Assembly (NCBI GenBank): GCA_965202585.1
Contig: OZ241826.1
Span: forward strand, 80,042,001 to 80,106,000
DNA from: Thalia democratica
Taxonomy: Eukaryota
Direction: 5' to 3'
Length of the DNA stretch: 64,000 nt
A program made the position numbers. This document shows positions 39,001 to 42,000 of the stretch, in pieces. Within the stretch, counting starts at the first letter, position 1. Every line of letters starts with the position of its first letter.

Positions 39001-42000
39001 TTCTTCACTTTTTTGATTATTCTTTTTATTTTTTACTATTCGTATGGAAAGCATTGTTTATTTCTTACTTTTTTATAAAACAAAATTTATGTTAGTAACC
39101 ATTTTTTGTACTATATGAAAACAAAAATCATTGCAGTTTGAGATTGCTACCAAGTAAATGGTCTCACCACATAATGCTGAGAGAAGAAAGCAATGTTCTT
39201 CAGACACCATTCACATTCGCATTCGTTCTGATGATGAATGATCACCGATTTTGACATGAGAGCTTTCAGACTCTTCCCGTGATGTCTAATGCTTCTTTTC
39301 CAATCTTTTGCAGTCTCCCTCCCGCTTATCGCTTGGAACTCGTTGGGATGCATCCAGCTTTGCTTGCCCCCAAGCTCGTACAAAATTGACTTGCCTGTAA
39401 AGTAAAGATCCGTAAAGTTCAAAATGAAACGTTGAAAAAATTCTTGAGCTGCTTATTTTCTTTGTAAAAAAACATTTTAAGAATTTAGGTTAAATCTTTT
39501 CTTTTAATTAAATCATTTAAATTAAACGTATAAAACATAAAACAAATAAATACAGTAATACTATTAAAGTTCGCTCTGCTTTGCTAAATCTAAAAAGCTA
39601 AAGCAGTTTACAGATAAAGACGGCACATCGAGCAAAAATCGACTTAAACATGAAAAGAAAACTTCTCTAAAAAATCACGAGCGGCCGGATTGAATGGTAT
39701 TTCACGTTCTGGTCCAACAAACGAAAAAAACGAGGCGAAACATAAGGAATAGTCTGCGTTGCGAGAAGGTAATTAAATTGCAACTAAATACTTTTGTGCG
39801 TTAGCAGCTAGTGTGTTTTTTTGCGCTCGTGATTTTGAATTGCAATCTTCTTTGCAGAACTTTTAACTGTGTGTCAATTACAACATATTTTAAGCCAAAC
39901 ATGCTGTTCTTTTAAGTTTTTTACTTTCAGAATTTTTATAGGTTTTGTTTAAAAGGTCTTTGGCTTTTATTATTTGCTGTTATTGATAGTGTTTTTCTAA
40001 AACTACGAATATTTTATACTAAGTATATGAAAAAAATATTGACACAATGTTTATGTATACTTAAGACAAATAGATATAACATTTATTACAAAGATTTCGC
40101 ACAGTGCATTATTAATTTTAAAGTATATTTTACTTACGCTTAGGTAAGTTCTAAAAGTTATTACACTTAGGTTTTATTAGAAAGAGAATTTAGGTAACTA
40201 TAAAGATTCTTAAATATTTTTATTTATAAAATTATTTTAATAGACTTTACAAGCAGCACAGTTTCGTAAAGGACAAAAACAAAACAATAAAAAATCTTGA
40301 ATGTTGTATACTTTTTAAATAAATTACTTTTTATTTGAACAAACATATAATTTTCTATTATGTAGCAAGAGATTTAACTATAATAAGAAAAGAGTATCCT
40401 ATCTAAATCAATAATTAAATTTGCATATTTATAAAACACTAGACAAAAATAATTTTATTCCGAATTAGTTTTATTTTAATATAGATGTACTGACAAACCT
40501 ATCTTCAAACTTTAAATAATAACTTCAAAAAAACAAAAGCTTGTTTAAACTATTCGAATTTATAATTTATTACTAATTCATATCTGCATCAAGTAAAAAA
40601 ATCAAAATAATACATAAGCTGAACAAACATTTATTAACATAACCCACCTTTGCTACCCTGGCTGAGTCTTGCGATCTAGAGGAGGGCATTGTTGTCGCCG
40701 CAAGTCACCTCCAAAAACTCCTCTCCTCCTTCGTCCTTCTTCACTTCCACCTCCGAGCTGCTCACGTGACCTTTCGGCAGGTTCACCGTCCACCTGCAAC
40801 CCTCTGTTGCCACGTGGTGATGGCTGGTTGCCCCTGGAAACCGGTTTTGAAGTCTCATTTTGCTCACTGAACTTTCCATCAAATCTGCGGATGTTTTTAA
40901 CTTGCATTTAAACAGATTTTAATTTTAAGGTTAAATAAATTTGAGCATTGTAATTTTATCTTTCTACAAATGAAATTATCTATCAAATTTTTTTTGTTAC
41001 AGCTTTATAGCTTGTTTTGGTTACCAGGAGACTCACTTGTAATGATAGTAGAAAATGAAAAGCTTGTTAATTAAAAATTAATTAAAATAAGTTAAAAGTA
41101 ATTACATTGAAACTTATGTTTTCAAATACTCACCGACGACAGTTGTCTTTCAGTTTCATTTTGCTTTCCGAAATAAAAAAAAAAAAGTGAAAAGGCAAAA
41201 CACTCGCAGGTTGCTATTTCAAAGGAAGCTGGAAAGAAAAGGAAGCTCGTCAATCGATAAATTAGACACGCAACCAATGGTGACTCTCAGCAACGCTTCT
41301 ATCGACGAAGGTCGCCATTGTCAACACACAACAACGCAAAGAAAAAGCCGAATAGGTGAGCTGCAATGATGTGACAAAGAATTAAGAGCGGCGATAAAAA
41401 GAAGCTGCGACGGCAGCAGATAATCTTGAGCAGAAGGAAGCGAATAACCGTGACCAGTTTTCAGTGTTTGTATTTCGTAGCTGCATGTACAAACGAAATC
41501 GAATTTTTGCGGTGTCAACGGAGCGATATACAAACATTGATGGCGTTTTGAGAATAAAAAAAAAGAGAACGCCGTTCGACGCATCGTGCCAATTAAAAAA
41601 CTTTAATCTGCCGCTCGCACACCAAACAACGCTAGCTGTGACGTCATAATGATCTCTGTGTAAAAAGTGATTGCATTCGTCACACAACAGGCTTTTCAGT
41701 TTTCTTTGGTATAAAGCGCCGCTCCACAGCTGAGGATCGAACGACGAGAAGCCTTTATTCGCTATTTATCTCCGCGCCACATTTTTAACTTCTTTTTTTC
41801 GATGCGGCCGTTTGAAACTTTCTATCTATCTTTCTTTCTAATAAAACGTGTGAGACGGTTGAAGTGAAAATACTTTCTGCCGAAATTTGCTAAATGATTG
41901 AACGGCAGATAAAAAGCCAGCTTAACTCGCCGCGCTACTCAGAGCTTTTACTTGATTTAAGAGGCGTGTTCCGTGATTTAATGCTTTTCAAAAACGCATC

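What the first reader, a model, noticed from the sequence alone, without database searches (positions are those of the whole stretch)
40676..40678. Copy B: single nonsense codon in a frame-symmetric SAND exon, so possibly a SAM-only decoy rather than a dead gene
Seen: TAC->TAG at the conserved Tyr of ALLY. All other 11 exons and splice sites are intact, with many synonymous changes. Exon 3 is 237 nt with phase 1 at both ends, so skipping it removes the stop, keeps the frame and deletes the first half of SAND. Established: SAM domains of this class polymerise, and SAND binds DNA via KDWK. Inference: B could make a DNA-binding-dead, polymer-competent partner, echoing SAND-less vertebrate SAMD7/short SAMD11 forms. 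Alternatively it is a very recent pseudogene or a base-call error.
Basis: partly seen in the sequence, partly recalled or inferred. Interest (0 to 1): 0.66.

Follow-up and report, generated by a model that had tools for sequence, protein, structure and literature searches.

The report
Young stop codon in duplicated gene
One of at least three tandem copies of a SAND-plus-SAM gene in an AT-rich animal-like genome carries a single premature stop that arose very recently (or is a base-call error), so it looks like an ordinary newly broken duplicate rather than an evolved SAND-less decoy.

Summary
On the minus strand, 40678..40676 reads TAG in the frame of a 237-nt exon (40884..40648). Copy A has TAC at 9415..9413. 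Both flanking introns are phase 1, so skipping the exon keeps the frame (junction codon AGC).

The window is a tandem array with a unit of about 31.9 kb. It holds copy A, copy B and the 3' part of a third copy C. The gene has 11 coding exons in my model, an N-terminal SAND domain split over exons 3 and 4, and a probable C-terminal SAM over exons 10 and 11.

The decoy reading is not supported.
- **SAND core:** across 92 codons, A and B differ by 14 synonymous and 0 nonsynonymous changes, plus the stop.
- **SAM core:** copy B carries 4 nonsynonymous changes, so SAND is the better-kept domain. The decoy idea predicts the opposite.
- **Neutral expectation:** neutral drift of B since the duplication would give about 8.7 stops and about 14 indels. 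One stop and one in-frame indel are seen.

The stop is therefore young: a null allele, a nascent pseudogene, or a sequencing error. Reads and RNA junctions are needed to decide.

The parts
40676..40678 (-). In-frame TAG in copy B, exon 3 codon 69. Copy A has TAC (Tyr).
44754..45028 (-). Copy B exon 1 (ATG at 45028; the intron after it is phase 2)
43088..43245 (-). Copy B exon 2. It has a 9-bp in-frame deletion relative to A, and its donor is GTTAGT (A: GTAAGT).
40648..40884 (-). Copy B exon 3, 237 nt, phase 1 at both ends. It encodes 52 pre-SAND codons and the first part of SAND (Pfam profile 4-29 in copy A).
39168..39394 (-). Copy B exon 4: the rest of SAND (Pfam PF01342 profile 29-75, 52.6 bits), with KDWK and a Cys/His-rich tail
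38645..38880 (-). Copy B exon 5 (linker); donor GTTTTT versus GTTTGT in A and C
38318..38438 (-). Copy B exon 6 (linker)
38177..38243 (-). Copy B exon 7 (linker); donor GTTTAT versus GTTTGT in A and C
37993..38041 (-). Copy B exon 8 (linker)
37032..37235 (-). Copy B exon 9 (linker; the second frame-symmetric exon, phase 2 at both ends)
36045..36303 (-). Copy B exon 10. Its last ~22 codons begin the SAM domain (SAM_1 profile 1-21, 17.5 bits, below the cut-off of 23).
35634..35825 (-). Copy B exon 11: the rest of SAM (SAM_1 profile 24-62, 14.5 bits, below the cut-off) and the TAA stop
3819..13544 (-). Copy A, the intact paralogue. Exons: 13544-13270, 11780-11614, 9621-9385, 7519-7293, 6983-6748, 6520-6400, 6328-6262, 6115-6067, 5325-5122, 4482-4224, 4010-3819.
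9413..9415 (-). TAC (Tyr) of copy A, homologous to the TAG of B
58762..63878 (-). Copy C, a third and more divergent paralogue. Only exons 5-11 lie in the window: 63878-63643, 63387-63270, 63197-63131, 62969-62921, 60376-60173, 59418-59160, 58953-58762. All are open and keep AG/GT; exon 6 has a 3-bp deletion. Used as outgroup.

Best explanation
Copy B is a full-length tandem paralogue of a SAND-SAM gene, with the same architecture as the long isoform of vertebrate SAMD11. Both of its domains, SAND included, stayed under purifying selection for nearly all the time since the duplication. If the base call is right, B has only very recently gained one nonsense change (TAC>TAG) in the first part of the SAND domain. 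The likeliest reading is a loss-of-function allele, or a pseudogene at its very first step, tolerated because at least two sister copies lie next to it.

Shown: the TAG, the intact remainder, the three-copy array and the selection pattern.

Inferred: the mRNA includes exon 3. The stop lies upstream of eight further exon junctions, so it either yields a domain-less N-terminal product (exons 1-2 plus 68 codons of exon 3) or sends the message to nonsense-mediated decay.
For: - **Array:** the tandem unit is about 31.9 kb, at 79-87% DNA identity over the long blocks and 85.6% over ungapped columns. Intron distance is JC 0.169.
- **Domains:** SAND hits exon 4 at 53.4 bits in A and 52.6 bits in B, against a cut-off of 22.
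- **Openness:** B has one stop in its coding sequence, no frameshift, and every AG/GT kept.
- **A versus B by Nei-Gojobori:** omega is 0.44 overall, 0.13 for SAND exons 3+4, 0.37 for SAM exons 10+11 and 0.82 for the linkers.
- **SAND core:** 92 codons show 14 synonymous and 0 nonsynonymous differences. P is 1e-7 if pair omega were 0.5, the value expected had B's SAND drifted throughout. With 18.7-37.4 nonsynonymous changes expected on B under neutrality, the unconstrained share of B's history is at most 8-16% (zero observed), or 13-25% if the TAG is counted.
- **Polarised by copy C over exons 5-11:** B has 18 synonymous and 24 nonsynonymous changes, A has 12 and 36, C has 33 and 71. Seven sites were ambiguous. 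B is no more relaxed than A.
- **Simulation:** neutral drift of B at the intron rate gives a mean of 8.7 stops. One stop or fewer occurred in 0.2% of 2000 runs. About 13.8 indel events are expected in the exons, and one in-frame 9-bp indel of unknown lineage is seen.
Against: - No reads, population data or RNA data could be consulted. It is therefore not shown that the TAG is real, that exon 3 is included, or that B is transcribed at all.
- Exons 1-4 have no outgroup in the window, so the SAND result is pairwise and not assigned to B's branch.
- Three B donors changed inside the consensus. This could mean relaxation began slightly before the TAG, or it could alter splicing.
- Synonymous divergence is very uneven: exon 4 has dS 0.46, while exons 1, 2, 5 and 6 have 0.04-0.10. 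Gene conversion or local rate differences may therefore blur the timing estimates. They do not affect the synonymous-to-nonsynonymous ratio.
Confidence: 0.65

Rival explanations
1. The TAG is a base-call, polishing or assembly error, for example reads of paralogues mixed at a tandem repeat. Copy B is then an intact, working SAND-SAM gene.
For: Everything else in B looks like a working gene: 10 other exons open, all AG/GT kept, 0 nonsynonymous changes in the SAND core, and a B-lineage nonsynonymous-to-synonymous count (24:18) lower than A's (36:12). A single substitution is the only defect.
Against: The change is a clean substitution in non-repetitive, fairly GC-rich exon sequence, not a homopolymer indel. 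No other paralogue seen in the window carries TAG there that could have contaminated the consensus; A has TAC and C's exon 3 is unseen. From general knowledge, not from a call: segregating nonsense alleles in redundant tandem duplicates are commoner per gene than residual substitution errors in a polished assembly.
Confidence: 0.15
2. One reading: B is expressed with exon 3 skipped (exon 2 joined to exon 4, in frame). Its product lacks the first part of SAND but keeps SAM, and acts as a partner or decoy that cannot bind DNA.
For: Exon 3 is 237 nt with phase 1 at both ends, and the junction codon AGC is in frame. B's 3' exons are under constraint, with a B-lineage count of 18 synonymous to 24 nonsynonymous. 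Human SAMD11 shows that SAND-less, SAM-bearing isoforms exist and dominate in retina (PMC11450717, passages).
Against: - The SAND core of B, including exon 4, has 14 synonymous and 0 nonsynonymous differences from A. Any SAND-less role can be no older than the TAG.
- B's SAM core changed more than its SAND core, with 4 nonsynonymous changes against 0.
- Exon 3's acceptor and donor are identical in A and B, so nothing favours skipping.
- Skipping would leave Pfam SAND positions from about 29 to 75, KDWK included, as a part-domain rather than removing SAND cleanly.
- Frame symmetry is expected for about a third of exons; 2 of 9 internal exons here have it.
- That this SAM polymerises is not shown. 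The two SAM halves score below the Pfam cut-off and found no solved structure.
Confidence: 0.08
3. The stop is bypassed at the RNA or translation level. Possible routes are A-to-I editing of UAG to UGG (Trp in place of Tyr), stop-codon readthrough, or re-initiation at a downstream Met. B would still make a protein that is nearly full-length or N-terminally shortened.
For: This fits only the lack of any other decay in B. An in-frame Met exists early in exon 4.
Against: No call gives positive evidence. All three copies end in TAA and no other gene in the window is available to test codon usage. The base after the stop is A, which to my recollection is not a known readthrough context. Because the stop is young, no adaptation to it need be invoked.
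Confidence: 0.03

Closest known systems
Vertebrate SAMD11 (long isoform) and its SAND-less retinal isoforms; SAMD7
   Same: The domain order is the same: N-terminal SAND and C-terminal SAM. Proteins that keep SAM but lack SAND exist (PMC11450717, passages read). Samd7 and Samd11 are SAM-bearing PRC1 components (PMC7892874, passages read).
   Different: In human SAMD11 the SAND-less forms come from an alternative first exon and are regular isoforms. They do not come from a nonsense codon in an internal exon. Here the SAND-coding sequence of the 'SAND-less candidate' is itself under strong constraint.
GMEB1 / Sp100 / SP140 SAND domains (solved structures 1oqj, 1h5p, 1ufn, 8j70)
   Same: Exon 4 aligns to the KDWK-bearing half of these SAND domains. 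GMEB1 scores E 4.6e-5, Sp100b 3.6e-4 and 1ufn 4.6e-4. KDWK is present in A and B.
   Different: The partner domain is SAM. To my recollection, not from a call, the partners in those families are MYND, PHD/bromo or none. The first part of the domain (exon 3) found no solved relative on its own; all 8 hits had E 0.42 or worse and none was a SAND protein.
Young duplicated (unprocessed) pseudogenes and segregating loss-of-function alleles in tandem gene families
   Same: There is one disabling substitution in one member of a tandem array, with redundant intact neighbours. Introns and splice dinucleotides are kept.
   Different: The usual marks of an established pseudogene are absent. There are no frameshifts and omega is well below 1, with 8.7 stops expected under neutrality against 1 seen. 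At most this is the very first step.

Membership tests
SAND domain (Pfam PF01342) | Profile match above Pfam's gathering score | tested here: met
   Exon 4 alone scores 53.4 bits in A and 52.6 bits in B against a cut-off of 22, over profile positions 27/29-75 of 76.
SAND domain (Pfam PF01342) | KDWK DNA-contact motif (motif name recalled; residues read from the translation) | tested here: met
   The string AKDWKRS is present in exon 4 of both A and B. It aligns to the KDWK of GMEB1 chain 1oqj_A.
SAND domain (Pfam PF01342) | A complete domain, N-terminal strands included, encoded without interruption | tested here: not met
   This applies to copy B as written. The TAG at 40678..40676 cuts the part matching profile 4-29. 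B's ORF piece up to the stop gave no Pfam hit, while A's exon 3 ORF gave 19.8 bits, E 6.5e-4, just under the cut-off. Copy A meets the feature.
SAM domain (Pfam PF00536 SAM_1) | Profile match above the gathering score | tested here: inconclusive
The two exon halves were searched separately. Exon 10 scored 19.2 bits (A) and 17.5 bits (B) on profile 1-21. Exon 11 scored 14.5 bits (B) on profile 24-62 and gave no hit for A at E up to 1. The cut-off is 23. The atlas lead for exon 11 was a SAM_1 cluster at 0.88, below the 0.9 level.
Polymerising SAM (Ph/PHC, SAMD7/11, SAMD1 type) | Head-to-tail polymer interface and sequence kinship with a SAM known to polymerise | not tested
   Exons 10 and 11 found no SAM structure in the solved-structure search. 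An 'atherin-like' cluster appeared at 0.84, a lead only. Folding or searching the joined SAM was left out.
SAMD7/SAMD11 family | N-terminal SAND plus C-terminal SAM in one polypeptide | tested here: met
   SAND lies in exons 3-4 and SAM halves in exons 10-11 of one phase-consistent 11-exon model, in A and B. The architecture of human SAMD11 comes from PMC11450717.
SAMD7/SAMD11 family | Orthology by sequence (reciprocal best hits or a tree) | not testable with these tools
Established pseudogene | Relaxed constraint: omega near 1, and several stops or frameshifts | tested here: not met
   Omega is 0.44 overall and 0.13 in the SAND exons. The SAND core has 0 nonsynonymous changes among its 14 differences. 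One stop is seen against 8.7 expected, with no frameshift. B's lineage is no faster than A's.
Established pseudogene | No transcription, or transcripts degraded | not testable with these tools
   No expression data are available.

The most novel reading that the evidence does not exclude
The nonsense codon has just switched copy B into a new role. Its message is made productive by skipping the frame-symmetric exon 3, or by A-to-I editing of UAG to UGG. B would then supply a SAND-defective, SAM-bearing subunit that joins assemblies of its intact sister copies and dampens their DNA binding. That would be an invertebrate gene-level counterpart of the SAND-less SAMD11 isoforms, caught at its origin.
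Probability: 0.07. Interest if true: 0.5.

Novelty: new member of a known kind. Interest (0 to 1): 0.15.

Why it matters
As it stands this is an ordinary event: one member of a tandem gene family carries a fresh nonsense change. For annotation, B should be flagged as 'one in-frame stop, otherwise intact, under recent constraint'. It should be neither discarded as an old pseudogene nor promoted to a new isoform class.

The locus has at least three tandem SAND-SAM paralogues with a very conserved SAND core and fast-evolving linkers. It could be a convenient place to study how SAMD11-like chromatin proteins diversify outside vertebrates. If RNA data showed a productive exon 2 to exon 4 message from B, it would be a rare example of a dominant-negative paralogue at birth.

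Tried and rejected
- **Conservation as exon finder:** ORF-by-ORF tblastn of A against B and a 60-nt identity scan did not separate exons from introns, because introns are also 80-90% identical. Exons were instead set from Pfam hits, reading frames and splice sites shared by the copies.
- **Solved-structure searches of exon 3, exon 10 and exon 11:** none found a SAND or SAM chain. Exon 3 gave 8 hits at E 0.42 or worse, all unrelated. Exon 10 gave 1 unrelated hit at E 0.79. Exon 11 gave 0 hits at E up to 10.
- **Atlas searches:** they only confirmed the domain classes, at scores below 0.9 (0.86 for exon 4, 0.88 for exon 11). They did not name the organism or the family.
- **Other genes in the unit:** of the 11 stop-to-stop ORFs of at least 110 aa, I sent the 6 that lie outside my exon model to Pfam. 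None had a match better than E 0.028, all far below the cut-offs.
- **Alternative splice routes past the stop:**
  - B has an internal acceptor-like site, TTTCCAG|G at 40834/40833. It is in frame but lies upstream of the TAG.
  - A donor-like site, GGAG|GTGACT, lies upstream of the TAG. It would end the exon in phase 0 and break the frame with exon 4.
- **TAG as a sense codon:** nothing in the window can test this. All three copies end in TAA.
- **Twelfth exon:** I found none. The ATG of exon 1 follows an in-frame stop, and the TAA after exon 11 is shared by A, B and C.
- **Not used or not available:**
  - Genome contigs (bacteria and archaea) and the phage, plasmid and E. coli collections were not used, as they are irrelevant to an animal-like gene.
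  - Supplements of the papers were not seen.

Full report
**What is there.** The window has 26-33% GC and no N, and I do not take it for human. It holds a head-to-tail duplication with a unit of about 31.9 kb. Positions 19-30305 match 31885-58459 in collinear blocks of 79-87% identity, or 85.6% over ungapped aligned columns in the 18-kb gene region.

Each unit carries one minus-strand gene. From Pfam hits, shared reading frames and shared splice sites I built an 11-exon coding model for copy A (13544..3819) and copy B (45028..35634). The phases chain without conflict. Every intron begins GT and ends AG in both copies.

A third, more divergent copy C begins at the window's end. Its exons 5-11 (63878..58762) are all open with splice dinucleotides kept.

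**The domains.**
- Exon 4 carries most of a SAND domain: PF01342 at 53.4 bits in A and 52.6 bits in B, against a cut-off of 22, over profile positions 27/29-75.
- Exon 4 includes KDWK and a Cys/His-rich tail. Its best solved relative is the GMEB1 SAND domain (1oqj, E 4.6e-5).
- The last 26 codons of exon 3 carry the first part of SAND: profile 4-29, 19.8 bits in A.
- Exons 10 and 11 carry the two halves of a probable SAM domain. Each half scores below the Pfam cut-off when searched alone. An atlas lead for exon 11 points to SAM_1 at 0.88.

The SAM call, its subtype and orthology to SAMD7/11 therefore stay open.

The SAND-then-SAM order is that of the long human SAMD11 isoform. In retina, most SAMD11 isoforms lack SAND (PMC11450717, passages read).

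**The observation.** The minus strand reads TAG at 40678..40676, at codon 69 of exon 3 of B (40884..40648). A reads TAC at 9415..9413. Exon 3 is 237 nt with phase 1 at both ends, and joining exon 2 to exon 4 would give AGC and keep the frame.

Several details need correcting.
- I find 10 other coding exons, not 11.
- Three B donors differ from A inside the consensus: exon 2 at +3 A>T, exon 5 at +5 G>T, exon 7 at +5 G>A. For exons 5 and 7 the B state is derived relative to C.
- B exon 2 has a 9-bp in-frame deletion relative to A.
- A and B proteins are identical at only 573 of 671 compared positions. Differences total 99.5 nonsynonymous and 58.5 synonymous.
- Frame symmetry is unremarkable: 2 of the 9 internal exons have it.

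**When the stop arose.** The decoy idea predicts that B's SAND exons have been free to drift while its SAM stayed constrained. The data show the reverse.

Nei-Gojobori counts, A against B:

| Exon set | omega |
|---|---|
| All exons | 0.44 |
| SAND exons 3+4 | 0.13 |
| SAM exons 10+11 | 0.37 |
| Linker exons | 0.82 |

- In the SAND core (exon 3 codons 53-78 plus exon 4 codons 1-66, 92 codons) the copies differ at 14 synonymous sites and at no nonsynonymous site, apart from the stop.
- Had B's SAND drifted since the duplication, pair omega would be at least 0.5. The chance of 0 nonsynonymous among 14 differences would then be 1e-7.
- With 18.7-37.4 nonsynonymous changes expected on B under full neutrality, the unconstrained share of its history is at most 8-16%.
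- Thirteen of the 14 synonymous changes lie in exon 4. That exon would encode a useless part-domain if exon 3 were habitually skipped.

With copy C as outgroup, changes over exons 5-11 fall as follows, with 7 sites ambiguous:

| Lineage | Synonymous | Nonsynonymous |
|---|---|---|
| A | 12 | 36 |
| B | 18 | 24 |
| C | 33 | 71 |

- B is no more relaxed than A (Fisher p 0.12).
- In the SAM core, B's own lineage has 4 nonsynonymous and 5 synonymous changes. A's has 2 and 1.
- A simulation of neutral substitution on B's lineage at the intron rate gives a mean of 8.7 stops. One or fewer occurred in 0.2% of 2000 runs.
- The intron indel density predicts about 13.8 indel events in the exons; 75 of the 92 intron events are not multiples of three. 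One in-frame indel is seen.

B was therefore a working, complete SAND-SAM gene until very recently.

**Best explanation and rivals.**

| Explanation | Confidence |
|---|---|
| Real, young nonsense change: a null allele or first-step pseudogene, tolerated because sister copies lie alongside | 0.65 |
| Base-call or assembly error | 0.15 |
| New SAND-defective role through exon 3 skipping, beginning with the TAG | 0.08 |
| Bypass by editing, readthrough or re-initiation | 0.03 |

- **Null allele.** Eight exon junctions lie downstream of the stop. Exon-3-containing messages should therefore be targets of nonsense-mediated decay; this is inference from established knowledge.
- **Error.** It cannot be told apart from a real change without reads.
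- **Skipping.** It is not excluded but has no support. Exon 3's own splice sites are unchanged between A and B. What would remain of SAND still holds KDWK.
- **Bypass.** It has no positive evidence.

**What stayed unchecked.**
- Reads, population data and expression.
- The identity of the organism (searches found nothing; the atlas gave no usable taxa).
- Orthology to SAMD7/11.
- Conservation of the Tyr beyond copy A (one search found no SAND chain).
- Anything that needs the joined protein.
- Supplements of the cited papers, which were not seen.

**Verdict.** This is an ordinary event in a tandem gene family, of low interest unless RNA data show a productive skipped message.

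Noticed in passing
58762-63878 (minus strand), running off the window end at 64000: There is a third, more divergent paralogue (copy C, about 71-73% DNA identity to A and B). Its exons 5-11 are open and spliceable, so the family has at least three tandem members. C starts right after B's unit at a different breakpoint: 58490 matches A 3559. It therefore lacks the ~3.5 kb that lie 3' of the gene in A (19-3559) and in B (31885-35363).
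   Followed up: partly
exon 4 (7519-7293 / 39394-39168) versus exons 1, 2, 5 and 6: Synonymous divergence between A and B is very uneven. dS is 0.46 in exon 4 but 0.04-0.10 in exons 1, 2, 5 and 6, against an intron distance of 0.169. This might reflect gene-conversion tracts, local mutation rate or selection on silent sites.
   Followed up: no
43087-43082, 38644-38639, 38176-38171 (minus strand): Three donor sites of copy B differ from A within the consensus: GTAAGT>GTTAGT after exon 2, GTTTGT>GTTTTT after exon 5, and GTTTGT>GTTTAT after exon 7. For the last two, copy C agrees with A. The effect on splicing is unknown.
   Followed up: partly
11113-11222, 24220-24329, 42348-42474, 52016-52125: A short dispersed repeat of 110-128 bp, 87-94% identical, occurs in both orientations. 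One copy lies in intron 2 of A, one in intron 2 of B, and one in each intergenic part. It looks like a small mobile element. Terminal repeats were not examined.
   Followed up: no
60872-60977 and 62334-62514; 53291-53812: Two arrays of a 41-bp tandem repeat with CCGG-rich palindromic ends (2.6 and 4.4 copies) lie inside copy C's long intron between exons 8 and 9. A 270-bp unit is repeated 1.9 times in B's upstream region.
   Followed up: no
about 42800-43062 (intron 2 of B): B has an insertion of roughly 260 bp directly after the exon 2 donor region that A lacks.
   Followed up: no
exon 9: 5325-5122 (A) versus 37235-37032 (B): In this linker exon the intact copy A is the fast one. It has 11 nonsynonymous changes on A's lineage against 2 on B's. 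Over exons 5-11, A's nonsynonymous-to-synonymous count (36:12) is close to neutral.
   Followed up: partly
40833-40840 (minus strand, inside exon 3 of B): B reads TTTCCAG|G where A reads TTGTTAG|G. This gives an acceptor-like site 51 nt into the exon that would stay in frame. It lies upstream of the TAG, so it would not remove the stop.
   Followed up: partly
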